51,794 nucleotides of DNA from Actinomycetota bacterium (lineage in GTDB: Bacteria > Actinomycetota > CADDZG01 > JAHWKV01 > JAOPZY01). Where the stretch lies: NCBI GenBank assembly GCA_050693695.1, contig JBOGWM010000282.1, forward strand, positions 1-51,794. Direction: 5' to 3'. The notes beneath the pieces were generated by a model. The model ran no database searches. It saw nothing but the letters and a program-made list of their open reading frames with translations, and had not been told where the DNA came from. Position numbers and translations under genes: made by a program. Positions 27,677 to 38,745 of the stretch are shown piece by piece (positions within the stretch are counted from its first letter, which is position 1; each line of letters begins with the position of its first letter).

Positions 27677-28870
27677 CTACCCCTCCGAGCTCTCCAGCTT
27701 CTCCTGCGCCACCTTGATCGCCTCTTCCATGAGGGCGTCCACCATTCGCTCCGCCCGAACCCATCCAAGTTGGCGTCCCCTCGAGAAGAGCAAACCCCTT
27801 CCCGGCCCCGCCGCCAACCCCACGTCCGCATCCCGAGCCTCCCCCGGACCATTGACCTCGCAACCCATCACCGCGACCTGAATGGGGGGAAGCTTGAGCT
27901 CTTCGAGCCTATCCAGAACCTGCTTGGTGAGTGCGAATACATCCATCTCCGCCCTCCCACAGGACGGGCATGACACCAGGTCGAAGCTGGTACGCCGCAG
28001 TCCCAGGCTCTGGAGGATCTGCTTCGCCGCCTTCACCTCCTCCACCGGGTCCGCGGTGAGCGATACCCGGATGGTGTCGCCGATCCCCTCGGCGAGCAGG
28101 GTCCCGATGCCCACGGCGGATTTGATCGTCCCCACCGGCGGGGGCCCCGCCTCGGTCACCCCCAGGTGCAGCGGATAGTCGACCCTCTCCGCCAGAAGCC
28201 GGTAGGCCCGGATCATCTGGTCCACCTTCTGATGCTTGACCGAGATCTTCAGGTCGAAGAACCCCTCCTGCTCGAGGATCCGCACTTCCTCGAGCGCGCT
28301 CTCCACCAGCGCTTCCGGCGTGGGGCCGCCGTGGCGGGCCACCAGGGCCCGCTCCAGCGAGCCCGCATTGGCGCCCACCCGGATGGGAATCTCCCGGCTG
28401 GCCGCCTCGCGGACCACCGTCCGGATCTGGGAAGCATCACGGATGTTGCCCGGATTGAGACGGAGCCCATGGACTCCCGCCTCGAGGGCCATCAAGGCCA
28501 GACGGTAAGAAAAATGGATATCGGCGATGATCGGCACCCCCGCTTCGGCCACGATGGCGGGAAGGGCGCGGGCGTCGGCCTCGTGGGGGACCGCCACGCG
28601 CACCAGATCGGCCCCCTGCGTCGCAAGGGCATGGGCCTGAATGAGCGTGGCCGAGACATCTTCGGTCTTGGTGGTGGTCATGGACTGGATGCGGATCGGA
28701 GCGTCCCCGCCGATCTCGACGTTGCCCACCCGGATCTTTCTCGACAGCCTTCGAGGGGAAGGCCCCGTGCCCCAGATGTCCATCCGAGATCGCTGCCCGC
28801 TCGGTGCTTGAGCGTGTGCTTTGAGCATCCGCTCAACGCTATCGAGGGGCTTGTTGTTTGTCAATCTCAT
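27677..28870 (-). CDS. ispG: 4-hydroxy-3-methylbut-2-en-1-yl diphosphate synthase
   Basis: IRIQSMTTTKTEDV, RVAVP, LHLGVTEAG and VSCPSCGR...MGCEVNGPGE. The start is placed at ATG 28870 (GGGGGAGG SD). The track ORF start at 29041 would overlap vapC. Confidence 0.9.
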   Translation of the reverse strand: MRLTNNKPLDSVERMLKAHAQAPSGQRSRMDIWGTGPSPRRLSRKIRVGNVEIGGDAPIRIQSMTTTKTEDVSATLIQAHALATQGADLVRVAVPHEADARALPAIVAEAGVPIIADIHFSYRLALMALEAGVHGLRLNPGNIRDASQIRTVVREAASREIPIRVGANAGSLERALVARHGGPTPEALVESALEEVRILEQEGFFDLKISVKHQKVDQMIRAYRLLAERVDYPLHLGVTEAGPPPVGTIKSAVGIGTLLAEGIGDTIRVSLTADPVEEVKAAKQILQSLGLRRTSFDLVSCPSCGRAEMDVFALTKQVLDRLEELKLPPIQVAVMGCEVNGPGEARDADVGLAAGPGRGLLFSRGRQLGWVRAERMVDALMEEAIKVAQEKLESSEG

Positions 28871-28926
28871 GCTCAGACCTCCCCCGGCTCCTAGCCAGCG
28901 AGGACGTCGGGTTAGGAGATTTCGTC

Positions 28927-29328
28927 TCAGGCGAGCGCTTCGCGAACTTGCAGTCGCGAGATGCGGGCGAGGGCGTCGAAGTCCCGGTCGTGATGCAGGA
29001 TCGTCAGGTCGTGGCGCAAGGCGCAGGCGGCGATGAGACAATCCACCGAGGAGCGTACAGTGACCCCGGCATGCCGAGCTCCCCGGTACAGATCGACCGC
29101 TTCTGAGAACACCTGCTCCCGAAGCGGCGATTCGATAACCGGAAAGGCCAGCATGGCCTCGCTGGCCAGCCGGAACGCGGGTTCATCCCGGAACCCCTGG
29201 AGCACTTCCTGAATCACCGGCAGACAGGTGACCACCTCATCGAGGTCCCCGAAAGACCCGATGTCAATGCGGCTTGGGCGGCGGAAGATTTCGATCCAGA
29301 CCGAGGTATCAACGAGCAGCACGCTCAC
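28927..29328 (-). CDS. vapC: PIN-domain ribonuclease toxin VapC
   Basis: VLLVDTSVWIE at the N-terminus (first acidic residue), and later D...E and HHDRDFD motifs. GTG start. It overlaps the preceding antitoxin gene. Confidence 0.8.
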   Translation of the reverse strand: MSVLLVDTSVWIEIFRRPSRIDIGSFGDLDEVVTCLPVIQEVLQGFRDEPAFRLASEAMLAFPVIESPLREQVFSEAVDLYRGARHAGVTVRSSVDCLIAACALRHDLTILHHDRDFDALARISRLQVREALA

Positions 29329-29545
29329 GCCCGGCGGCTAGGTGTCGGGGCTGATCCGCACGCATCCTCGATAGATCACCCTCCCAGAGCCCAGAGCCGG
29401 CAAGCTCCAGGATCCGCCCGGCTCTGGCTCGCCGCACGAAGTCTTCCAGGGCTCGGGCAACCGCCCTCGAGTATGTTCGCTCACCGCTCAGCCGAACCGC
29501 TTCCTCCAGAAGTTCCTCATCAAGCACAAGGTTTGTACGTCTCAT
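29309..29545 (-). CDS. vapB: Type II antitoxin VapB (DUF2191-like)
   Basis: MRRTNLVLDEELLEEAVRLSGERTYSRAVARALEDFVRR is typical of VapB-type antitoxins. It lies upstream of and overlaps the PIN gene. Confidence 0.75.
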   Translation of the reverse strand: MRRTNLVLDEELLEEAVRLSGERTYSRAVARALEDFVRRARAGRILELAGSGLWEGDLSRMRADQPRHLAAGRERAAR

Positions 29546-29576
29546 GTGTCTAGGGTACAGAAGGCTCCTCAGCGGG

Positions 29577-30326
29577 TCAATGGCGTCCCCTCAGCCACTG
29601 CAAATCCTCCTTGATTCGTGGCCAGGGGGTCTCGAAGATGACGACGGACGCTCCCGAGGCCGCCACCATCTCCCGGATGGCCTCGGGGTCCATCTTCCCG
29701 GCACCGATGTTGGCGTGGCGGTCGGCCCCCGTTCCCGGGAGATCGCGGGAGTCGTTGCAGTGCAGGACATCGATCGTGCCCACGATCTTGAGCACCCGCT
29801 CCACGACATCGGAAAGCTCCTCGCCCGCCGCGTGAGCATGGCAGGTATCGAAGCAGAAGCCGACCTCGAATTCCTGGAGGCGCTCCCACAGCCGCTCCAT
29901 CTGCTCGACCTTCCTCGCCACGGCGTTGTTCCCCCCGGCCGTGTTCTCGATGAGGATCGGTACCGGGAACTCGCGCTCCTCGAAGACCTTCCACCAGCGC
30001 TCCGGACCCTTGAGGGGATCATCCTCGGCGTGCCCGCCATGCACGATCACCCCGGCCGCCCCGATCCCGGCCGCGGACTGCGCCGTCTCCGCCAGCGTCT
30101 TGCGAGACGGAACCCGGATGCGGGGGGAGGGATGGCAGACGTTCAGCCGGTAGGGGGCATGGACATAGATGGGCAGCGGCGATTCACGAAGCGCCTGCGC
30201 GTCGAGCCGAGGCTTGGGCCGCTGAAAGCTCTGAGGATCCCCCAAGAACAGCTGGACCGCCTCGGCGCCGACCGAACGGGCCTCGGCCAAGGGGTCCACG
30301 CCAGCCACATGGGCGCCGATGAGCAC
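29577..30326 (-). CDS. nfo: Deoxyribonuclease IV (AP endonuclease family 2)
   Basis: IGAHV, VHAPY.LN, VVHGG, ILIENTAG, FDTCHAHAAG and LHCNDS, matching the order of the Endo IV metal-binding motifs. Confidence 0.85.
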   Translation of the reverse strand: MLIGAHVAGVDPLAEARSVGAEAVQLFLGDPQSFQRPKPRLDAQALRESPLPIYVHAPYRLNVCHPSPRIRVPSRKTLAETAQSAAGIGAAGVIVHGGHAEDDPLKGPERWWKVFEEREFPVPILIENTAGGNNAVARKVEQMERLWERLQEFEVGFCFDTCHAHAAGEELSDVVERVLKIVGTIDVLHCNDSRDLPGTGADRHANIGAGKMDPEAIREMVAASGASVVIFETPWPRIKEDLQWLRGRH

Positions 30327-30379
30327 GAGCGGAGCCTACCCTTTCTTTGGTTGGACCATGTGGTCCACGGGGTCGTGAA

Positions 30380-30757
30380 TCAGATGCGACGCAGGGGCAG
30401 GCGCGGGTCGATGTCTCGAAGGTCTTCGGGATCGCTGGTCAGCACCTGATGACCTCGCTGTCGGGCGCAGAGCACGACCGAGACGTCCACGATGTCATCG
30501 ACGCCTGCCACTCCACAGAGTTGTCCCACCGCCCGAGCTGTGTAATCGTCGAGGGGCACGACCTCTACGAGCGGCGAGGCGAGGAGCCGGACCAAGCGGG
30601 CTTGGCGGCTGCCGTCGCGCCAAACCTGAGCCAGCGCACCAGCCGGGATGGCCAGCACGTCACCGATCTCGCAGGCCCTGGCGACCACCGCCACAACATT
30701 CCGCTGGTTACGCTCAAATGCGATTAGGGCCCCCGCGTCCAGGGTCGCTCCACTCAA
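30380..30757 (-). CDS. PIN-domain toxin
   Basis: TLDAGALIAFE at the N-terminus and LTSDPEDL near the C-terminus. The TTG start overlaps the antitoxin stop (TTGA). Confidence 0.7.
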   Translation of the reverse strand: MSGATLDAGALIAFERNQRNVVAVVARACEIGDVLAIPAGALAQVWRDGSRQARLVRLLASPLVEVVPLDDYTARAVGQLCGVAGVDDIVDVSVVLCARQRGHQVLTSDPEDLRDIDPRLPLRRI

Positions 30758-30999
30758 CGGCCGAGGGCCTGGTCAGCCATGGCCCGCTCCTGATCGGTCA
30801 GCGGCCCCCCGGTCTCCGCCAGCATCTTCGAGAGCATCTCCGCCAGGTCATCAAGGGCGCCTTTTAGCAAGAGAGCCTCCGCTACATAGGCGCTCACGCT
30901 CCGCGCTCGACCTTCGGCGACCGCACGTTGGGCCTGCTCGAGCAAGAAGGGCGCCAAGCTCACGGCGATCTTGGTCTTGGCTGTCATACCGACTATCAT
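30754..30999 (-). CDS. Ribbon-helix-helix (CopG-like) antitoxin
   Basis: TKIAVSLAPFLLEQAQRAVAEGRARSVSAYVAEAL gives a beta-strand plus two helices. The ATG at 30999 overlaps the adnB TGA (ATGA). Confidence 0.7.
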   Translation of the reverse strand: MIVGMTAKTKIAVSLAPFLLEQAQRAVAEGRARSVSAYVAEALLLKGALDDLAEMLSKMLAETGGPLTDQERAMADQALGR

Positions 31000-33900
31000 A
31001 CCAAACCTCCTCCGAGCAGCGTCTCCCCGGCTTGGGGCATCTCAAGGGCGGCGGTGAGATCCGACAGGGCACGCTGGGCCTCGGCGGGCTCCAGGGTGCG
31101 GGAGTCCTGCGTGCCCGTGCTCAGATAGCAGTAGGTGACTCGCAGGGGACCCCGGAGGTCGACGCCGAGCTGGATCAGGGCGGCGGCGTAGAGCGCGAGC
31201 TGATGGATCTTGTCGAGCTCGGATGCCGAGCCGGTCTTGAAGTCGACGATCTCGAGGCCTCCATCGTCGCATTCGTAAACCGCATCCATCCGGCCTCGGA
31301 TCAGGCATCCCCCCACCTTGAGCACGAAGGGGAGCTCCGCCATGACTTCTCCGGTGTCCAGGCGGGCGAGCCTGCGCTCGCCGTATCCCAGCGACTTAAA
31401 GCCCGCCTTGATCTCTGCCAGGCGGGCGGTCTGGATCCGGGTCGCCGGGATGTCCAGGATCTCCTCGTCAGCGAGACCCATCAAAGCTCCGATACGCGCC
31501 TGTTCCTCGATCCAGCGATGCACCTCGACCCCGATCCGGCGGGACACCTCGGGCCGTGCGGGAAGGGGACGCATGAGCTCCCGGCGACTGAGCCGTCCCG
31601 CAGCCAGATCCACCGCTCGGGTGACCGACAGGGTCGCCGGCAACCCCCGTCCGGGCAAGTCGGCAGGGCGTTTTCTACCGGTTTCGGCCACCGCCGCCGC
31701 CATCCGGCGGTGCTGCTCGATCAGCGCTTCGGCGCGAGTGCGCGCGGGGGGTTCCAGGCGCGAGAGCAGCTCCTCGGCGGATAGCTCGCCGGACATCAGA
31801 GCCTCTAGGGCGACGGGATAACTCTCGGGGAAGACCGGGTCCGGGTACAGGAGGTGGGGGGGGTCGGGCGGCCAGGTGGCCCTCTCGGACAGACGAGCGA
31901 GCAACGGGTTCCGATCCGGCATCTCGGCGCCCGGGAGCACCTCGGTCTCGGGAGCGGCGGCCACCTCCTCCCAGAAGAGCGATGGGCCATGAGGTCGGCT
32001 CTGTCGCAGATACCACCAGGCAGCCGTCACATAGAGCCGCTGCTTCGCACGGGTCAAAGCGACGTAGAAGAGGCGGCGCTCATCCTCCACCGCCCGCTCT
32101 CTGAGCTCCCGACCGAACTCCGCCTTCTTCTGGGGCTGACCGTCGGGAAGCCACGGCTTCGGCAGGTGCTCGGCATCCTCACGCACGGGATAGGGGAGCT
32201 GCCCGTACGAGATCATGGGATTCGAGATCCGCTCGTCGGGAAACACCGAGCCCACCTGGTCGCCGCTCTCGTTGCGGCGAGCGGCCACCGCGGGTACGAA
32301 GACCACCTCGAACTCGAGTCCCTTGGCCTGATGCACCGTCATGAGCTTGACCGAATCGTCGGTCACGAGCGCGGCGAGCTCCATGGTTTCCTCCACCTCC
32401 TCCGCCGCATCCAGGTAGGCAAGGAAGGCCGGCAACGAGGGCTCCCCGGAGACGGGAGCGAAATTGGCGACCAGCCCAAGGAAGTTGGTGAGATTGGCCC
32501 ACCCCGAGCCGGTTCCCGCCACCACGTCGAGGGCCTCCGCGATCCCCGTCGAGGTCGCCACCTCCTGAACCAGATCGAGGAGCGGGCCCGGAGTCCGGGG
32601 GCGCAGGGCGCTCAGCTCGGCCCGAGCTTGAGCCAGTCGCCTGGCCGCCTCGGGGGCCAATCCCTCGATCTCGTCCAGGTGATCCAGCGCCTCGGTCAGC
32701 GAGTAGGCGACCTCCTCCGGATCGAGCTTGGCGCCCCTGGCGCCCCCACCCGCCCCTCCAACCGCCAGCTCCCGGTTGCGGGAGGCCGCCCAGCGGGCGA
32801 GCAGGACCAGATCCCGGTAATGCACGCGAAAGCGGGGGCCGAGAAGGATCCGGGCAAGCCACCGATTTCCCCCGGGACCGGGGTCGGCAAGGACTCGCAG
32901 CCAGGCCACGACATCCATCACCTCCGGCAACGCAAGCAGTCCTCCGAGACCGACCACCTCGACGGGGATGTTCGAAGCGCAGAGCGCATCGTAGACGGCG
33001 GCGATATGAGCCCTTCTCCGGAGAAGGATCGCGAAGTCGGACCAGCGAGCAGGGTCTCGTCCGGGTCGGGCAGGCGCGCCGTGGAGACGCTGTATCTCCT
33101 CGGCGATGTAGCTCGCCTCCTCGAGTTGGTCGCCAAGTTGCTTCACGCCCACCCAGCCCTCACCGTGGCGGGGATCGGCCGCCAGAGCCTTGCCCGGACG
33201 CCGGGCCTGCGGAATGGAGTCGATGAGCCGGTTGGCGACGTCCAGGATGCGGGCGCCGCTGCGGAAGTTCTGGGAGAGCGACAGGTAGCCGTGCGCCTTG
33301 CCCCCGGCTCTCAAGAAGTGGCGAGCGGGAAAATCGATCAGGTTAAACAGCGTGGAACCTCGCCACTGGAAGATGTTCTGGCGGGCATCCCCCACGGCGG
33401 TGAGGTTGTATCCTTCGGGCGCGAGAAGCTGCATCAGCCGCCGCTGGGCCACGTTGGTGTCCTGGTACTCGTCAAGCAGGATCGCCCGGTAGCGCTGTCG
33501 AAGATCGGCCGCCACGCTCGGGAAACGCTCCAGGATCTCGACCGCCTTCGTCACCTGGTCGCCGAAATCGATGCGCTGGGCGCGTTGCTTGGCATCCAGA
33601 TAGGCCCGAACCACTTCTGCCAGCTCGATCCGGCGGCGGGAGGTGGCGATCACCTCCTCCGAGAACCCGACGGCGTCGCGAAGGATCCGTTCGTCCTGGG
33701 TGATCACCATCTCGGGAGTGAGCAGGTGGTTGGCGCACTGATCGGCAAGGCCCAGGGCCATCCGACAGATCATAGCGACCGAGCGTGACTCGATGACGTC
33801 AAAGGCGGGGAGCCGATCAAGCTCGGACAAGAGCAGCTGCCAACGTTGGGCCTCGGAGAGCAGGCCCACTTCGGGATCCACCCCGATTCGCACCCCATGC

Positions 33901-34241
33901 TCCCGGACGAGACTGTCGGCGAAGGAGTGGTAGGTGGCGACCTGCGGCTCCTCCCGGGGACGGGGCGCCATCTCGGCGCACGCCGCCGAGATCCGGTCTT
34001 GCAGCTCTCGGGCAGCCTTGTTGGTGAAGGTGAGACCGAGGATCTGCGACGGCTGAAGGGTCTGGCCCTCGATCATCCAGACGATCCGAGCGGCCATGAC
34101 CGCGGTCTTCCCACTCCCCGCCCCGGCGATGATGGCCAGGGGGACGAGCTCGTGGGTGATCGCCTGGAACTGCTCGGAGCTCGGCTCGTGACCGCCGAAC
34201 GTGGCACGGACCGCCGGGGAGATAGAGGTCGTAGCGCTCAT
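30996..34241 (-). CDS. adnB: UvrD-like helicase / RecB-family nuclease subunit AdnB
   Basis: Walker A AGAGSGKT, UvrD motifs (LLDEYQDTN, VHQAKGLEF) and a C-terminal nuclease GRMDAVYE..GGLEIVDFKTG...QLALY. The start is placed at ATG 34241, which overlaps the adnA stop (ATGA). Confidence 0.85.
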   Translation of the reverse strand: MSATTSISPAVRATFGGHEPSSEQFQAITHELVPLAIIAGAGSGKTAVMAARIVWMIEGQTLQPSQILGLTFTNKAARELQDRISAACAEMAPRPREEPQVATYHSFADSLVREHGVRIGVDPEVGLLSEAQRWQLLLSELDRLPAFDVIESRSVAMICRMALGLADQCANHLLTPEMVITQDERILRDAVGFSEEVIATSRRRIELAEVVRAYLDAKQRAQRIDFGDQVTKAVEILERFPSVAADLRQRYRAILLDEYQDTNVAQRRLMQLLAPEGYNLTAVGDARQNIFQWRGSTLFNLIDFPARHFLRAGGKAHGYLSLSQNFRSGARILDVANRLIDSIPQARRPGKALAADPRHGEGWVGVKQLGDQLEEASYIAEEIQRLHGAPARPGRDPARWSDFAILLRRRAHIAAVYDALCASNIPVEVVGLGGLLALPEVMDVVAWLRVLADPGPGGNRWLARILLGPRFRVHYRDLVLLARWAASRNRELAVGGAGGGARGAKLDPEEVAYSLTEALDHLDEIEGLAPEAARRLAQARAELSALRPRTPGPLLDLVQEVATSTGIAEALDVVAGTGSGWANLTNFLGLVANFAPVSGEPSLPAFLAYLDAAEEVEETMELAALVTDDSVKLMTVHQAKGLEFEVVFVPAVAARRNESGDQVGSVFPDERISNPMISYGQLPYPVREDAEHLPKPWLPDGQPQKKAEFGRELRERAVEDERRLFYVALTRAKQRLYVTAAWWYLRQSRPHGPSLFWEEVAAAPETEVLPGAEMPDRNPLLARLSERATWPPDPPHLLYPDPVFPESYPVALEALMSGELSAEELLSRLEPPARTRAEALIEQHRRMAAAVAETGRKRPADLPGRGLPATLSVTRAVDLAAGRLSRRELMRPLPARPEVSRRIGVEVHRWIEEQARIGALMGLADEEILDIPATRIQTARLAEIKAGFKSLGYGERRLARLDTGEVMAELPFVLKVGGCLIRGRMDAVYECDDGGLEIVDFKTGSASELDKIHQLALYAAALIQLGVDLRGPLRVTYCYLSTGTQDSRTLEPAEAQRALSDLTAALEMPQAGETLLGGGLV

Positions 34242-37204
34242 GTCCGGACCGAGAAGCCCAGCTCCCGGCCCTCGGGCCACAGAGGGCAGAGAGGCTTCAT
34301 CCGGCACCAGAGGCAATCCGCCTCGGGCGAGGGGGCGAATCGCTCCGCCATGACTCCCTCGACGAGCATCGGCAGGCGCTTGAGGACCTTGTCGGCCTCC
34401 TCCGGGCTCTGCGTCGCTTGCTTGGGGCGGCCGTCCGCCCAGGTATCTCCCGGATACACCAGGCGCGCCGACACCGGCTTTCCGAGCTCGCGCAGCTCGG
34501 AATCCTCCCTGGCGGCCAGATGATAGATGGCAAGCTGCAGGGACTGGGGAGCCTTGCCGAGACCGGGGGCATAGCGGGCAGTCTTGTAGTCAGCCAGAAC
34601 GATATTAGGTCCGATCTTGTCGATCCGATCGATACGTCCACGCAGGATCGCTCCGGCATGCGGGATCTCGAAGAAGTGCTCGGTACGCACCGTCCGGCCC
34701 GCCTTGACCTCGTGCTCCAAGAAGACCTCGAGCATCCTCTCCCCGTCCCGCCGGTACTGGCGGGCGATGGCGGCGTTCGGGAAGGCGCCTTCCTCGAAGA
34801 GGTCGTCGTAGGCCTTGAAGAGGGTGGGTCGATCCGAGATCACCCCCTCGTGCACGTTCTGAAAGAGAGCGTGCATCCAGGTCCCGAACTTCATGGCGTA
34901 GGTGGAGATCGGATCCAATCCAAGGATGGTCTGGAGCATGTACTGCAGACCGCAGTTCTCGTAGACGGAGAGGCGGGAGTAAGAGGTTCGGAGTTGTCCT
35001 CCATCCTCCAGAGCCACGGCCCCCTCGGTCCATCCCCAACGTCCGTACCAGCGAGCGGGGTCGGTCCCGGGAAGCTCGGAGGCAGCGATGAGAGCCGCCA
35101 CCTTCTCCTCCGAAAGGCTGGTCCGCGACTGCAGGGTTCGACGCAGGCTGGCTCGCAGCTCTCGCTCGGTCAGGGGAAGCGACTCCTCCAAGGAGGCAAC
35201 GGCGATGGCTTCTCCCGCCAGCTCCGTCAGAAACCGGCTGGGCCGGCCCCGGCCTCCCGGCCCCGGCGAGACCGTGAAGATCGCCTTTCGCCGGGCCCTG
35301 GTGGCGGCGAGGTAAAAGGTTCGGCGATCATCTGCGATCGCCTCGATCTGGCGTTGCGTCACCTCGGCCATCTCCAGGGAGAACGGATCGAAGAGCCCCT
35401 GAGCGCGCCGCCCCTTTGGAATCCAGGCGTCAAGGCATCCGGCAACCACCACGACGTCCCACTCCCTTCCCTTCGCGCCGTGAAAGGACAGGAGCTGGAC
35501 TCCCCCTGCCCGGTCATCGGTTCTCGGTGCCAACCAGGGGTCAGCCCCGAAGTCGGCCCTCGTCGCCTCCCGGAGATACTCCCGAATCGTTGCCCTCCCA
35601 TGACGCCGCTCGACGAAGCGCCCCAGGGCATGGCCGAAGGCCATGAGCGCATCCACCTGGGCGTTGGCCGGGGTACCCCCTCGGTCCTGCCCGGGCGCGA
35701 AGGGCTCCTCTCGTATGGAGGCGACCAGCCGCTGGTAGTAGGGAGCTGCGGCGTAGACCTGCCAGAAGCACTCATCGGCCGCCGCCTTCGCTTGGCTCCG
35801 TACCAGATCGGCGAGCATCCGCAGGCCCGCCGCCTCCTCGGCTTCCTCCACCACCTCCGCGAGGCTCCGATGCTCTTGCCAGGCCCGGCGCTCCAGATGG
35901 CGACGCTGCCCGTAATCCAGGCCCACCAAAGGAGAGGTGAGGAGGTTGCCGAGCAGCGCCTCGGACCCCTCCTCATCCAGCGCCACGCGGACGAGATCGA
36001 GAAAGCAGGAGACGGCCGGCTCGGCTGCCAGAGGCCGCTCCGGCGCCATGGCAATGTAAGGGACCTCCCAATGCTCGAGAGCGCGCTGAAGAGCCGGCAG
36101 CAACTGAGCAGGCTGGGAAACCAACACGGCCATCTCGTGCCAGTCGGCTTCGTGGAGAAGTTGAAGCCTCCGCAGCTCCCTCCCGATCCCGGCCATCTCC
36201 TCAGCGCAGGACCCGTAGAGCCGGCAGGTGAAGTCGGTCTCTCGTTCCGAATAGACTGTTGGCCGCCACCATCCTTCACCGTCGTTGTGGGCGATCATCT
36301 CCCCCACCGCCGCCCCCAGGCCGGGACCGAGACGATGAGTGCGATCGAGGATCACCCGGGAGTGAGCGTCGAACCACTTCTCGAAGCCCAGGACCCAATC
36401 CGGCTGGGCTCCTCTGCACGACTCGACCGCACAGTCCGGATCGGCGGCGACCGTGAGATTCGCAATCCCCATCCCTGCCAGCAGCTCCCGATGGGCCGGG
36501 CTCATCTCCTCTCCCTCATCGACGAGGACGTGCAGGAAGCGAAGCGCTAGGGCCCGCCTCACCTCTTCATGGCGCTGGAGCATCCGGGCTGCCGAGGCGA
36601 TGAGCGTCGCATAGTCGATCCGACATTCACGGCGAAGATGATCCCGATACCGCCGGTAGAAGCGCACCACCTCCTCCCAGTCGGGCCGCCGAAGCGACAG
36701 GGCATCGAGGTCCTCGTCGCGCATGAGACGCTGGGTGACCCTCAGGCAAAAATCGGCAACCTCATCGACGAAAGCGCGCTGGGAGAGCTGGTCTCCCCAC
36801 GTGGGCCAGTCGGCCGGGCGCTCCATGGCGAGAAGCTCCCGCACCACTCCCCATTGCTCGGGAGCCGTGAGCAGGACCGGAGGCTCGCGGTACTCCAGCC
36901 CCAGAGCGCGGTAATGACGGGTGACGAGATGGTAGCAGAGGGCGTGCCAGGTATAGACGGGAATCTCGACGGTCGCCCGCTGCGGCAACCCCCAGGCGAG
37001 ACGGTCCTTCACCTGTTGAGAGTAGGCCCGGCTGTTGCAGAGAAAGAGAATCCGGTGAGGGGCCAGGCCGGGAGTACAGGCCAGGCGAAGGAACCTGCGC
37101 TCCAGGGTGAGGGTCTTGCCGGTCCCTGGCCCGCCGAGGACCAGAAGCGGACCCCCCTCGTGTTCAATCGCCTCTCGCTGGCGGTCGGTCAGCTCAACGC
37201 TCAC
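34238..37204 (-). CDS. adnA: UvrD-like helicase / RecB-family nuclease subunit AdnA
   Basis: GGPGTGKT, helicase core, a C-terminal RIDRIDK...VLADYKT...LQLAIYHLA nuclease and a terminal Cys cluster CLWCRMKPLC. The GTG at 37204 overlaps the stop of the NYN gene (GTGA). Confidence 0.8.
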   Translation of the reverse strand: MSVELTDRQREAIEHEGGPLLVLGGPGTGKTLTLERRFLRLACTPGLAPHRILFLCNSRAYSQQVKDRLAWGLPQRATVEIPVYTWHALCYHLVTRHYRALGLEYREPPVLLTAPEQWGVVRELLAMERPADWPTWGDQLSQRAFVDEVADFCLRVTQRLMRDEDLDALSLRRPDWEEVVRFYRRYRDHLRRECRIDYATLIASAARMLQRHEEVRRALALRFLHVLVDEGEEMSPAHRELLAGMGIANLTVAADPDCAVESCRGAQPDWVLGFEKWFDAHSRVILDRTHRLGPGLGAAVGEMIAHNDGEGWWRPTVYSERETDFTCRLYGSCAEEMAGIGRELRRLQLLHEADWHEMAVLVSQPAQLLPALQRALEHWEVPYIAMAPERPLAAEPAVSCFLDLVRVALDEEGSEALLGNLLTSPLVGLDYGQRRHLERRAWQEHRSLAEVVEEAEEAAGLRMLADLVRSQAKAAADECFWQVYAAAPYYQRLVASIREEPFAPGQDRGGTPANAQVDALMAFGHALGRFVERRHGRATIREYLREATRADFGADPWLAPRTDDRAGGVQLLSFHGAKGREWDVVVVAGCLDAWIPKGRRAQGLFDPFSLEMAEVTQRQIEAIADDRRTFYLAATRARRKAIFTVSPGPGGRGRPSRFLTELAGEAIAVASLEESLPLTERELRASLRRTLQSRTSLSEEKVAALIAASELPGTDPARWYGRWGWTEGAVALEDGGQLRTSYSRLSVYENCGLQYMLQTILGLDPISTYAMKFGTWMHALFQNVHEGVISDRPTLFKAYDDLFEEGAFPNAAIARQYRRDGERMLEVFLEHEVKAGRTVRTEHFFEIPHAGAILRGRIDRIDKIGPNIVLADYKTARYAPGLGKAPQSLQLAIYHLAAREDSELRELGKPVSARLVYPGDTWADGRPKQATQSPEEADKVLKRLPMLVEGVMAERFAPSPEADCLWCRMKPLCPLWPEGRELGFSVRT

Positions 37205-38745
37205 AGCCCCACCGACCTCGCCAGGCTCTCGGAGGAGATGACGAACGCGCCGGAGACGATGCAGCGCCTCCCGAGCTCCCGATCGGAGGTGACGACCACC
37301 GGCCCGACCCCCGGCGTTCCCGCCTCGAGCTCCGACACGATGAAGTCGTCGGCTGTCTCGCCCTCGGAGGTGAAAACTCGGGTGATCGTGTGAGCGCCCA
37401 CGCGAGGCACCCAGAACCACGAGACCTTCCGACCGTCATAGATCACGGTCACCCGATTCCCGGTTCTCGACTGATAGCGCTGGAGCGCCTGCTCCAGCGC
37501 TCGACGCTTGTCCTGAAGGCGCTCCGCTCCGATATGGCCCAAGCTCACGTTCCAGCCGTCGACCAGAAGGAGGATTCGCTTGGCCTCGAGCACTCCCCGA
37601 GCACCATCCTCCACGAAACGATCTCTCAGCTCACTCGGAGTTGGCGCTGGGCGCCCCCTGGGCGCGGCTCGGGCTCGGCCACCCTCTGAGCGCCCTCCAA
37701 GCGTTTCCGGTGCCGGGAGCCTCGCTCGAGCTTCTTTAAGCTCCCGCCGTACGCGTCGGTATCGCTCCTGGAGGTCCTCGAGCTCGGCTCGCAGGTCTCG
37801 CCGCTCCCGACGTGAGATCTCCTCAGCCTCCTCCAGCTCCGCCATCCTCGTGACAAGGCCCTGCTCGCGTGCTCGCACCGTGGCGCATTCCTCCTGGAGA
37901 CTCCGAGCGCGCTTCGCCGCCTCCGCTGCCTCCTTCGCCTTTTCCTCGAGCGTTTGCGAGGCCTTGCCCAATCGCCGTTCGAGGCGTTTGGTCGTCCGCC
38001 GCTCGGTCGCAAGATCTCGACCAAGGCGCCTCACCTCCTCCTGGCTGTTCCAGCTCTCCCGGGCAAGGGCCCCGATGAGCCCTTCCAACTCATCTAGCTC
38101 CGGATCCTCCTCCGCCCAAGTCGACACCTCCAGGGCATCCTCGACCCGATCCCAGGCCAGCAGGATCGAGACGACGTGAGGGGCATCGCCTGACCCTTGC
38201 CGCAGATCATCGATGATCTCTTTGGTGGAAAGCTGCTCATAAGGGGCGAAGCATCCGACATGGACGCTCCTGAACATGTCGACGATGACTTCGGTGAAGC
38301 GCCTGTGTTGGCCGAGAGCGGCGAGGATGGTTTCTCGCTCCGGCTTCCCCAGCTTGCGCAGACGCTTCCCCACCAGCGGAACCAGCCGGGGGGGCGCCTC
38401 GTTCCGCTGAAGGAACTCGAGCCCGTCCGCCGCCACCAGCAGCAACGGCTCCAGCAGCCAATCGGCCACGCCGAACCCATTGAGGCAAGACGGCGAAGCC
38501 GCCGACTCGCCTCCCGTCCCGCCGCCGGCGGGCACTGTCCGATCATCGGGCGTCCTCCGGACACGCCGAGCGGTCCCGACCGGCGACTTCGACAGCCCCC
38601 GACGGCCAAGCGCCAGGACTTCCTTGCCTCCCGAAACACCCGGAGAAGCTTCCAGTCGGCTCACTTCCACGCTCCCGTTCTCGGTCGCCTTTTCTTTTTC
38701 CGGCATGGATACCCTTTTCTCCTGCCTGGCGCCGAGCTGGAGCAA
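37201..38745 (-). CDS. Coiled-coil protein with a C-terminal YacP/Rae1-like NYN ribonuclease domain
   Basis: The C-terminus ILLLVDGWNV...VTVIYDG...TRVFTSEGETADDFIV...VVVTSDRELGRRC..SGAFVISSESL matches the NYN_YacP pattern. The middle ~120 aa are Glu/Arg/Leu/Ala heptad-like. An alternative start is ATG 38706. Confidence 0.75.
   Translation of the reverse strand: MLQLGARQEKRVSMPEKEKATENGSVEVSRLEASPGVSGGKEVLALGRRGLSKSPVGTARRVRRTPDDRTVPAGGGTGGESAASPSCLNGFGVADWLLEPLLLVAADGLEFLQRNEAPPRLVPLVGKRLRKLGKPERETILAALGQHRRFTEVIVDMFRSVHVGCFAPYEQLSTKEIIDDLRQGSGDAPHVVSILLAWDRVEDALEVSTWAEEDPELDELEGLIGALARESWNSQEEVRRLGRDLATERRTTKRLERRLGKASQTLEEKAKEAAEAAKRARSLQEECATVRAREQGLVTRMAELEEAEEISRRERRDLRAELEDLQERYRRVRRELKEARARLPAPETLGGRSEGGRARAAPRGRPAPTPSELRDRFVEDGARGVLEAKRILLLVDGWNVSLGHIGAERLQDKRRALEQALQRYQSRTGNRVTVIYDGRKVSWFWVPRVGAHTITRVFTSEGETADDFIVSELEAGTPGVGPVVVTSDRELGRRCIVSGAFVISSESLARSVGL

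What the first reader, a model, noticed from the sequence alone, without database searches (positions are those of the whole stretch)
30380..38745. Chain of 4-nt start/stop overlaps couples NYN protein, AdnA, AdnB, an RHH antitoxin and a PIN toxin
Read directly from the sequence:
- The NYN gene's TGA and the adnA GTG overlap at 37201-37204 (GTGA).
- The adnA TGA and the adnB ATG overlap at 34238-34241 (ATGA).
- The adnB TGA and the RHH ATG overlap at 30996-30999 (ATGA).
- The RHH TGA and the PIN TTG overlap at 30754-30757 (TTGA).

Five consecutive genes therefore appear translationally coupled. A toxin-antitoxin pair hard-wired to the 3' end of a double-strand-break resection machine is unusual. 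TA modules normally have their own autoregulated promoter. It could mean the PIN/RHH pair is expressed in step with DNA-damage repair. It could also be a TA insertion that has been domesticated into the operon.
Basis: partly seen in the sequence, partly recalled or inferred. Interest (0 to 1): 0.6.

Follow-up and report, generated by a model that had tools for sequence, protein, structure and literature searches.

The report
Toxin-antitoxin cassette inserted into adnAB-nfo operon
A small mobile toxin-antitoxin gene pair, which very probably carries its own promoter, has landed between the DNA-repair genes adnB and nfo in this one actinobacterial species; the chain of overlapping stop and start codons is real but is what this genome produces by chance, so the finding is largely ordinary.

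Summary
All four 4-nt stop/start overlaps are in the sequence at the stated coordinates. They do not have one origin.

- **adnA/adnB and NYN/adnA:** the adnA/adnB overlap is kept in 27 of 28 relatives. The NYN/adnA overlap is kept in 4 of 5 same-family relatives.
- **RHH/PIN:** this overlap is typical of the toxin-antitoxin (TA) family.
- **adnB/RHH:** this junction is new.

In same-order relatives nfo follows adnB, directly in 11 genomes (9-41 nt gap). The RHH-PIN pair sits there only in this genome and in a 99.5%-identical MAG. None of about 110 homologous cassettes found elsewhere lies next to adnAB.

Across 87 distinct cassettes, 82 carry a -10-like hexamer 6-7 nt before a conserved antitoxin ATG, which corresponds to window 30987 and not 30999. 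The hexamer lies between two GGTATGA half-sites. This points to an own, autoregulated promoter giving a leaderless mRNA. adnB's TGA lies inside that -10 box.

About 19% of same-strand gene pairs in this genome allow a 4-nt overlap, and a second chain of four exists.

One point favours operon integration. This copy alone has a strong Shine-Dalgarno (SD) sequence before ATG 30999 and lacks a -35 box.

The closest precedent is E. coli dinB-yafNO. No transcript data could be obtained.

The parts
37201..38745 (-). Coiled-coil protein with a C-terminal YacP-type NYN domain. It is the first gene of the chain. The start is uncertain: TTG 38745 is the longest ORF, and ATG 38706 is in frame.
   Evidence: Pfam NYN_YacP 62 bits. 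It lies next to adnA in 4 of 5 same-family relatives with a 4-nt overlap; a homologue was found in only 1 of 20 genomes of the neighbouring family, and there not next to adnA.
34238..37204 (-). adnA (UvrD-like motor plus PD-(D/E)XK nuclease). GTG start at 37204 overlaps the NYN TGA.
30996..34241 (-). adnB. ATG 34241 overlaps the adnA TGA. The C-terminal tail is about 11 codons longer than in same-family relatives and ends at a TGA inside the TA cassette's -10 box.
   Evidence: The 4-nt adnA/adnB overlap is kept in 27 of 28 relatives. Tail comparison.
31006..31013 (-). Shine-Dalgarno GGAGGAGG, 6 nt before ATG 30999, inside the adnB tail.
   Evidence: This is the only one of 87 family cassettes with a 5-nt SD core at this place.
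30995..31003 (-). TGGTATGAT, a candidate extended -10 box (TGNTANNNT) of the cassette's own promoter and the first GGTATGA half-site. It contains adnB's TGA (30998-30996) and the first ATG (30999).
   Evidence: 82 of 87 cassettes have a -10-like hexamer 6-7 nt before the conserved ATG, against 2.5% of control ATGs. Motif rules from PMC3898074.
30983..30990 (-). Second half-site GGTATGAC, containing ATG 30987-30985. This is the family-wide antitoxin start and the inferred leaderless transcription start.
   Evidence: G at -2 98%, T at -1 100%, A at +4 94% over 87 cassettes. 37 of 87 have no start codon at the position of 30999.
30754..30999 (-). RHH-type antitoxin: 81 aa from ATG 30999, or 77 aa from ATG 30987.
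   Evidence: Weak profile hit to CopG/Arc/MetJ-type antitoxins. It always precedes the PIN gene in homologous cassettes.
30380..30757 (-). VapC-like PIN toxin, 125 aa. TTG start overlaps the RHH TGA.
   Evidence: A 4-nt NTGA overlap is present in 59 of 87 cassettes.
30327..30379 (-). 53-nt spacer between PIN and nfo. It holds the palindrome TGGACCA-CA-TGGTCCA (30367-30352) and has no T-tract terminator.
29577..30326 (-). nfo (deoxyribonuclease IV), the ancestral downstream neighbour of adnB.
   Evidence: NCBIfam NF002198 329 bits. It follows adnB in 16 same-order relatives.
28927..29545 (-). Second, unrelated vapB-vapC pair between nfo and ispG.
   Evidence: Pfam VapB_antitoxin 41.8 bits and PIN 57.2 bits. 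Not found at this place in same-family relatives G001 and G004.

Best explanation
The RHH-PIN pair is a mobile type II (VapBC-like) toxin-antitoxin cassette that inserted between adnB and nfo of an older NYN-adnA-adnB-nfo gene row. The insertion happened in the recent ancestry of this species.

The chain of four overlaps is a composite:
- two ancestral junctions (NYN/adnA and adnA/adnB);
- one junction internal to the cassette (RHH/PIN);
- one new junction (adnB/RHH).

The new junction arose because the adnB frame now runs into the cassette's regulatory region. It stops at the TGA inside the cassette's -10 box, TATGAT.

In its family the cassette has its own promoter. This consists of a weak TTG-type -35, about 17 bp of spacer, and a -10 hexamer TATGAT or CATACT. 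The promoter is embedded in two GGTATGA half-sites, the likely operator for the RHH antitoxin. The antitoxin ATG lies 6-7 nt after the hexamer, so the mRNA is leaderless.

In this window that start is ATG 30987, 8 nt after the adnB stop, not ATG 30999.

In this copy the -35 region is occupied by the adnB tail. A TGN-extended -10 remains, and a strong SD precedes ATG 30999. The pair is therefore probably expressed in two ways. One is from its own autoregulated promoter. The other is by read-through from adnAB, which must also supply nfo. This resembles yafNO behind dinB.

**Shown:** the anatomy, the insertion, and the family-wide motif conservation.

**Inferred:** promoter activity, the leaderless start, read-through, and toxin/antitoxin activity.
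For: **Insertion**
- nfo follows adnB in 16 same-order relatives. The gap is 9-41 nt in 11 of them. In 5 genomes a small antisense gene lies between them (gap 230-340 nt in 4; 1185 nt in G015, which also carries an unrelated TA pair there). No relative has this RHH-PIN pair at the site.
- The best PIN/RHH homologues in 40 relatives (71%/62% identity, in another family) lie elsewhere.
- A further 16 loci from named genomes and assemblies and 80 metagenome loci show no AdnA, AdnB or Nfo in the fetched flanks, up to 3-5 kb where the contig allows.
- The family occurs in Actinomycetota, Myxococcota and Dormiibacterota.
- A 99.5%-identical MAG has the same arrangement.
- G015 carries a different PIN/RHH_1 pair at the same adnB-nfo site on the opposite strand. 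The site therefore accepts TA insertions.

**Own promoter and start**
- 82 of 87 distinct cassettes have a TANNNT or xATAxT hexamer 6-7 nt before the conserved ATG, against 2.5% for all ATGs in the same loci.
- 37 of 87 have no start codon at the position of 30999.
- The half-site is a direct repeat in 50 cassettes and an inverted repeat in 20.
- A TTG signal is seen at -36 to -34.
- No other cassette has a 5-nt SD core.
- The ParD alignment begins at the second Met.
- In M. tuberculosis TANNNT lies 7-12 bp before transcription starts, TGN-extended boxes are the strongest, and 32 of 37 TA pairs with a primary start site are leaderless (PMC3898074).

**Chance**
- 18.8% base rate and a second chain of four in the same genome.
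- Co-directional overlaps make up about 15% of gene pairs in most prokaryote groups, and the 4-nt overlap is the commonest type (PMC6728339).

**Precedent**
- dinB-yafNO is transcribed from two promoters (PMC2814082).
Against: - No transcript or ribosome data exist for this locus.
- The consensus promoter scan found nothing in 29400-31600, because no -35 box is present.
- This copy lacks the -35 region and uniquely has GGAGGAGG 6 nt before ATG 30999. The native promoter may be crippled here, and ATG 30999 may be the start in use.
- In 50 of 87 cassettes the first ATG exists and 'MxVGM' could be translated.
- The -10-like hexamer overlaps the repeated half-site. Part of its conservation may reflect operator function and not promoter function.
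- The promoter rules come from mycobacteria. The host is only placed as 'Actinomycetota bacterium' through its relatives.
- The exact insertion boundaries could not be defined, and no target-site duplication was looked for.
Confidence: 0.7

Rival explanations
1. Domesticated TA. After insertion the cassette lost its own promoter and is now expressed only from the adnAB operon. The antitoxin is translated from ATG 30999, by SD-driven initiation or by termination-reinitiation at ATGA. RHH and PIN levels then follow the double-strand-break repair genes, for example as a growth brake during repair.
For: - No -35 box remains upstream of the -10 box in this copy.
- It is the only one of 87 cassettes with a strong SD (GGAGGAGG) correctly spaced before the first ATG.
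- No terminator-like site lies between adnB and nfo.
- Where nfo lies 9-41 nt behind adnB in relatives it must be co-transcribed, so read-through is needed here too.
- Both genes are intact in two MAGs.
- yafNO is induced from the dinB promoter.
Against: - The arrangement is limited to one species-level lineage.
- The TGN-extended -10 box and both half-sites are intact, and such boxes can work without a -35.
- No LexA box or RecA-NDp-type motif was found near the operon.
- A different TA pair sits at the same site in G015 in the opposite orientation, so co-orientation is not required there.
- A second unrelated vapBC pair lies just behind nfo. This suggests TA accumulation and not a designed link.
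Confidence: 0.17
2. Locus-stabilising addiction. The two TA pairs that bracket nfo are kept because they penalise deletion of this chromosome segment. There is no regulatory link to repair.
For: - Two unrelated PIN-type TA pairs flank nfo.
- Both are not found at these places in same-family relatives.
Against: - Nothing marks the segment as a mobile island.
- adnAB, nfo and ispG are conserved core genes in relatives.
- Composition is even across the region.
- Neutral persistence of selfish cassettes explains the same facts.
Confidence: 0.08
3. Annotation artefact. The small ORFs are not genes, or the overlaps come from wrongly chosen starts.
For: - The Pfam PIN hit is below the cut-off and the RHH protein has no Pfam hit.
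- My crude GC3-based caller preferred the antisense ORF over the PIN gene.
Against: - More than 3000 homologues of the same 125-aa length exist.
- The PIN model has pLDDT 95 and matches VapC structures.
- The RHH partner is conserved in nearly all cassettes.
- TTG 30757 is the only canonical start before the conserved Asp7.
Confidence: 0.02

Closest known systems
E. coli dinB-yafN-yafO-yafP operon (YafNO type II TA behind DNA polymerase IV)
   Same: A type II TA pair lies directly downstream of a DNA-repair gene on the same strand. It is transcribed both from the upstream repair-gene promoter and from its own antitoxin-autoregulated promoter (PMC2814082). The present locus has the same layout: repair genes, the TA pair, then a further downstream gene.
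   Different: - The toxin here is a PIN/VapC type, not a RelE-like mRNA interferase.
- The host is an uncultured actinobacterium.
- The upstream genes are adnAB, not dinB.
- No LexA box was found.
- The dual transcription is inferred here and not measured.
VapBC type II toxin-antitoxin modules, especially the leaderless TA transcripts of Mycobacterium tuberculosis
   Same: - A small DNA-binding antitoxin gene precedes a PIN toxin gene with a 4-nt overlap.
- The PIN fold matches VapC structures at TM 0.65-0.75.
- A TANNNT box directly before the antitoxin ATG fits the leaderless TA transcripts of M. tuberculosis, where 32 of 37 are leaderless (PMC3898074).
   Different: - Sequence similarity to Pfam PIN is below the cut-off.
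- At the place where my by-eye reading of the sequence puts the second catalytic acid (Glu) of VapC, this family has a nearly invariant Gln44 (by-eye placement, not a structural superposition).
- The antitoxin matches no curated family.
- Neither toxicity nor the RNA target is known.
Translational coupling by termination-reinitiation at ATGA/GTGA overlaps (Huber et al. 2019)
   Same: Co-directional gene pairs have a 4-nt stop/start overlap, often with an SD inside the upstream gene (PMC6728339). The adnA/adnB junction, between two subunits of one enzyme, is the classic use and is conserved.
   Different: At the adnB/RHH junction the overlap coincides with a conserved promoter/operator element of an inserted cassette. 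It is not kept in any relative, so it is most simply a by-product.
Mycobacterial AdnAB helicase-nuclease
   Same: Two adjacent genes each encode a UvrD-like motor plus a C-terminal PD-(D/E)XK nuclease. The gene order is adnA then adnB.
   Different: - Here the pair is preceded by a NYN/coiled-coil gene at family level.
- It is followed by nfo at order level.
- Orthology to mycobacterial AdnAB was judged from domain architecture only.

Membership tests
Type II toxin-antitoxin, VapBC type | Two small co-directional genes, antitoxin first, closely spaced or overlapping | tested here: met
   RHH 30999-30754 and PIN 30757-30380 overlap by 4 nt. The pairing is kept in nearly all homologous loci, and 59 of 87 have an NTGA overlap.
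Type II toxin-antitoxin, VapBC type | Toxin has the PIN fold | tested here: met
   AlphaFold2 model with pLDDT 95.3 and pTM 0.88. The top 45 PDB matches are VapC, FitB or other PIN-domain proteins, with TM up to 0.75. Pfam PIN alone scores 20.5 bits, below the 23.6 cut-off.
Type II toxin-antitoxin, VapBC type | Four conserved acidic active-site residues of the PIN domain | tested here: inconclusive
   Alignment A2 has invariant D7, D88, D91 and D109 and nearly invariant D112. At the place where my by-eye reading puts the usual Glu, Gln44 is nearly invariant. No structural superposition of the active site was made.
Type II toxin-antitoxin, VapBC type | Antitoxin has a DNA-binding domain (here ribbon-helix-helix) and a toxin-binding tail | tested here: inconclusive
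   There is no Pfam or NCBIfam hit. The profile of 7 homologues hits CopG/Arc/MetJ-type ParD antitoxins at only E 0.016-0.02. The strand-helix-G-helix pattern is visible in alignment A1.
Type II toxin-antitoxin, VapBC type | Toxin arrests growth and the antitoxin neutralises it; the antitoxin represses its own promoter | not testable with these tools
   This needs expression tests. Conserved half-sites over the -10 box and start are consistent with autoregulation.
AdnAB helicase-nuclease | Two subunits, each with a UvrD-like motor domain and a C-terminal RecB-type PD-(D/E)XK nuclease, encoded by adjacent genes | tested here: met
   Pfam UvrD-helicase, UvrD_C and PDDEXK_1 are found in both proteins. 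The pair is conserved with a 4-nt overlap in 27 of 28 relatives.
Translationally coupled gene pair (termination-reinitiation) | Co-directional genes with a stop/start overlap of 4 or 1 nt on one transcript | tested here: met
   The sequence geometry is met at all four junctions. A single shared transcript has not been shown.
Translationally coupled gene pair (termination-reinitiation) | Translation of the downstream gene depends on translation of the upstream gene | not testable with these tools
   This needs reporter fusions with a premature stop in the upstream gene. For adnB/RHH, comparative data favour an independent leaderless start at 30987.
DNA-damage-regulated TA (dinB-yafNO type) | The upstream promoter is controlled by the DNA-damage response (LexA box or RecA-NDp motif) | tested here: not met
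   Neither motif has a match between 38000 and 44800, where the operon's upstream region lies. The window's best LexA-box matches have 2 mismatches and lie elsewhere. The RecA-NDp pattern is no commoner than chance. The motifs come from distant model species, so this is weak negative evidence.

The most novel reading that the evidence does not exclude
The cassette is being domesticated. It has lost its -35 box and gained a strong SD before a 4-codon-longer antitoxin start that overlaps the adnB stop. RHH and PIN synthesis is therefore driven by, and translationally tied to, the AdnAB resection machine, with PIN acting as a growth or RNA checkpoint during double-strand-break repair.

A separate point stands on better evidence. 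The family shows a promoter/operator design in which one 7-8-bp half-site occurs either as a direct or as an inverted repeat, over the -10 box and a leaderless start.
Probability: 0.12. Interest if true: 0.55.

Novelty: new member of a known kind. Interest (0 to 1): 0.25.

Why it matters
As stated, the finding matters little. Overlap chains are common in GC-rich genomes, chromosomal TA cassettes insert into operons, and dinB-yafNO already shows a TA pair behind a repair gene.

The case is useful in two ways:
- **A caution for annotation.** An ATGA overlap can be created when an upstream frame runs into the promoter of an inserted cassette. The annotated start (30999) is probably four codons too long.
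- **A well-defined comparative data set.** 87 cassettes show a leaderless promoter/operator architecture for an unnamed RHH-PIN family found in Actinomycetota and Myxococcota. This copy is a natural variant, without a -35 and with an SD, in which the switch from leaderless to operon-driven expression could be tested.

Tried and rejected
- **Promoter and terminator scan of 29400-31600:** nothing found. This is uninformative for -35-less actinobacterial promoters.
- **LexA-box and RecA-NDp motif searches:** no convincing site near the operon.
- **PDB sequence search with the PIN protein alone:** only noise. The fold search was needed.
- **Context of the closest Nfo homologues (81% and 77% identity):** the contigs start at or just before nfo, so they say nothing about adnB.
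- **The small antisense Zn-ribbon-like gene found between adnB and nfo in some relatives:** no clear copy in this genome. Whether the TA pair replaced it remains open.
- **ORF 29544-30449 (+) and ORF 30347-30727 (+):** rejected as antisense shadows of nfo and PIN.
- **Upstream starts TTG 34316 for adnB and GTG 37420 for adnA:** rejected, because relatives align from the 4-nt-overlap start.
Full report
**Observation.**

On the minus strand the window carries a co-directional gene row:

- an RmuC-like gene (39923-38877);
- a coiled-coil/NYN_YacP gene (38745-37201);
- adnA (37204-34238);
- adnB (34241-30996);
- an 81-codon RHH-like gene (30999-30754);
- a 125-codon PIN gene (30757-30380);
- after 53 nt, nfo (30326-29577);
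- a second vapB-vapC pair (29545-28927);
- ispG.

Two details need changing. The TA pair is not at the 3' end of the unit, because nfo follows it. A second in-frame ATG lies at 30987.

**Is the chain more than chance?**

I laid out the whole 2.53-Mb MAG and made a crude gene call from GC3. By that call, 201 of 1069 same-strand neighbour pairs (18.8%) allow a 4-nt stop/start overlap. Under independence that predicts about 1.3 chains of four. Two chains of four and five chains of three are present.

Published surveys put co-directional overlaps near 15% of gene pairs in most prokaryote groups, with the 4-nt overlap the commonest type (PMC6728339). The chain is what this genome yields by chance.

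**Each junction has its own history.**

- The adnA/adnB overlap is kept in 27 of 28 relatives across the class. My frame check missed the 28th, which also reads GTGA at the adnA stop. This fits two subunits of one enzyme.
- The NYN/adnA overlap is kept in 4 of 5 same-family relatives. A NYN homologue was found in only 1 of 20 genomes of the neighbouring family, and there it is on another contig than adnAB.
- The RHH/PIN overlap belongs to the TA family itself. 59 of 87 distinct cassettes have ATGA, GTGA or TTGA.
- Only the adnB/RHH junction is new.

**The TA pair is an insertion.**

AdnB was found in 39 of 40 relatives. In 16 same-order genomes whose contig reaches past adnB, nfo comes next.

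| Gap between adnB and nfo | Genomes | What lies in the gap |
|---|---|---|
| 9-41 nt | 11 | nothing |
| 230-340 nt | 4 | a small antisense Zn-ribbon-like gene |
| 1185 nt | 1 (G015) | that small gene plus a different PIN/RHH_1 pair on the opposite strand |

No relative has this RHH-PIN pair at the site.

Homologues of the pair do occur in 15 of the 40 relatives. They are often present in several copies and always lie elsewhere. The best ones (71% PIN, 62% RHH identity) are in a different family from the host's.

Sixteen further loci from named genomes and assemblies, and 80 metagenome loci, show no AdnA, AdnB or Nfo in the fetched flanks. Those flanks reach up to 3-5 kb where the contig allows. 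The family spans Actinomycetota, Myxococcota and Dormiibacterota and has more than 3000 members of constant 125-aa length.

The only other genome with the adnB-RHH-PIN-nfo arrangement is a MAG contig that is 99.5% identical in nucleotides, so it belongs to the same population. It rules out misassembly but adds no evolutionary depth.

AdnB here has about 11 more C-terminal codons than in same-family relatives. This is as expected if its frame now reads into foreign sequence.

**What the pair is.**

The PIN protein scores below Pfam's cut-off. A model built from 39 homologues has pLDDT 95, and its best PDB matches are all VapC, FitB or other PIN-domain structures.

D7, D88, D91 and D109 are invariant. 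At the place where my by-eye reading of the sequence puts the usual Glu, Gln44 is nearly invariant. Catalytic competence is therefore not settled.

The partner protein shows the strand-helix-Gly-helix pattern of ribbon-helix-helix proteins. It gives only a weak profile hit to CopG/Arc/MetJ-type ParD antitoxins, and that alignment begins at its second Met.

**The cassette brings its own start signals.**

I aligned the DNA before the antitoxin gene in 87 distinct cassettes from unrelated contexts. The results are:

- No similarity is seen upstream of position -16, apart from a weak TTG signal at -36 to -34.
- Close to the start there is a sharply conserved block. It reads GGT-ATGAT(N4)-GGT-ATG-AC in 50 cassettes and GGT-CATACT(N3)-GGT-ATG-AC in 20.
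- 82 of 87 have a TANNNT or xATAxT hexamer ending 6-7 nt before the conserved ATG. The control rate for all ATG triplets in the same loci is 2.5%.
- In 37 of 87 the codon aligned with window 30999 is not a start codon (CAT, TAT, TAA, AGG and others). The start shared by the whole family is therefore the ATG that corresponds to window 30987.
- The half-site GGTATGA(C/T) occurs twice. It is a direct repeat in one subgroup and a perfect inverted repeat (GGTCATAC...GTATGACC) in the other. This is what an operator for a dimeric RHH repressor would look like.
- No other cassette has a 5-nt SD core before the gene.

In M. tuberculosis, TANNNT lies 7-12 bp before transcription starts. No -35 consensus exists there, and TGN-extended boxes are the most active. 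32 of 37 TA pairs with a mapped primary start are leaderless (PMC3898074).

The simplest reading is that the family has an autoregulated promoter whose transcript begins at the antitoxin's ATG. In the window the element is TGGTATGAT (31003-30995), followed by AGTCGGT and ATG 30987. The TGA that ends adnB (30998-30996) and the 'overlapping' ATG 30999 are both part of this -10 box and half-site. The ATGA overlap is thus a by-product of where the adnB frame happens to stop.

**What is special about this copy.**

The position where other cassettes have a -35 box is adnB coding sequence here (GACGCT, read). The consensus promoter scan finds nothing.

This copy is also the only one of 87 with a strong SD, GGAGGAGG, placed 6 nt before ATG 30999. 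No terminator-like site lies between adnB and nfo. In relatives where nfo sits 9-41 nt behind adnB, nfo must depend on read-through.

I therefore think the pair is expressed in two ways. One is from its own extended -10 promoter as a leaderless mRNA. The other is from adnAB read-through transcripts, on which the SD and ATG 30999, or reinitiation, can serve.

This is the arrangement shown experimentally for yafNO behind dinB in E. coli, with one SOS-regulated upstream promoter and one antitoxin-autoregulated proximal promoter (PMC2814082). I found no LexA box or RecA-NDp-type motif near this operon, and no transcript data could be obtained.

**Verdict.**

The pair is embedded in the repair gene row and may well be co-transcribed with it.
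- It is nonetheless a lineage-specific insertion of a mobile cassette that very probably has its own promoter and a non-overlapping native start. A second, unrelated vapBC pair sits just behind nfo, and another TA pair occupies the same site in a relative. This points to TA accumulation and not to a designed link with double-strand-break repair.
- A true domestication, meaning operon-only expression, keeps a probability of roughly one in six.

Noticed in passing
L029 (G015:C5, region between adnB and nfo): A different TA pair (PIN 30.8 bits, RHH_1 20.6 bits) lies at the same adnB-nfo site on the opposite strand. The site appears to be a recurrent landing place for TA cassettes.
   Followed up: partly
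L022, L023, L026, L027, L029 (between adnB and nfo in relatives); also L166 and L167: A conserved small antisense gene (54-66 aa, MAKCKTCGKxIRIPxGWTxGPAVRRHYWxKHPE, Zn-ribbon-like) has no Pfam family. It lies between adnB and nfo in five same-order relatives but has no clear copy in this genome (best tblastn E 0.012).
   Followed up: partly
window 28927-29545 (-): A second, unrelated vapB-vapC pair (VapB_antitoxin 41.8 bits, PIN 57.2 bits) lies between nfo and ispG. Same-family relatives G001 and G004 instead have a 130-145-aa ORF there that I judged by eye to be anti-sigma/HATPase-like (no family scan was run).
   Followed up: partly
87 RHH-PIN cassettes (L001-L020, L061-L156); in the window 31003-30983: The family shows a conserved promoter/operator design. 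The half-site GGTATGA(C/T) appears as a direct repeat in 50 cassettes and as an inverted repeat in 20. In both cases it overlaps a -10-like hexamer and a probably leaderless ATG.
   Followed up: yes
window 30352-30367 (-): A perfect palindrome, TGGACCA-CA-TGGTCCA, lies in the 53-nt spacer between the PIN stop and the nfo start. It has no T tract. It could be a regulator site or a small hairpin.
   Followed up: no
window 27677-29041 (-): The longest ispG ORF overlaps vapC by 115 nt. The Pfam GcpE match begins at residue 101, and an ATG at 28870 has a GGGGGAGG SD upstream. The real ispG start is probably 28870.
   Followed up: partly
window 37201-38745 (-) and L052-L055: The NYN_YacP/coiled-coil gene precedes adnA, with a 4-nt overlap in 4 of 5 same-family genomes. 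An RmuC-like gene lies upstream of it in this window. This is a recombination-gene neighbourhood whose NYN member has no known role.
   Followed up: partly
alignment A2 (PIN family), residue 44 of the window protein: Gln is nearly invariant at the place where my by-eye reading puts the second catalytic acid (Glu) of VapC PIN domains. The family may have an altered active site.
   Followed up: no
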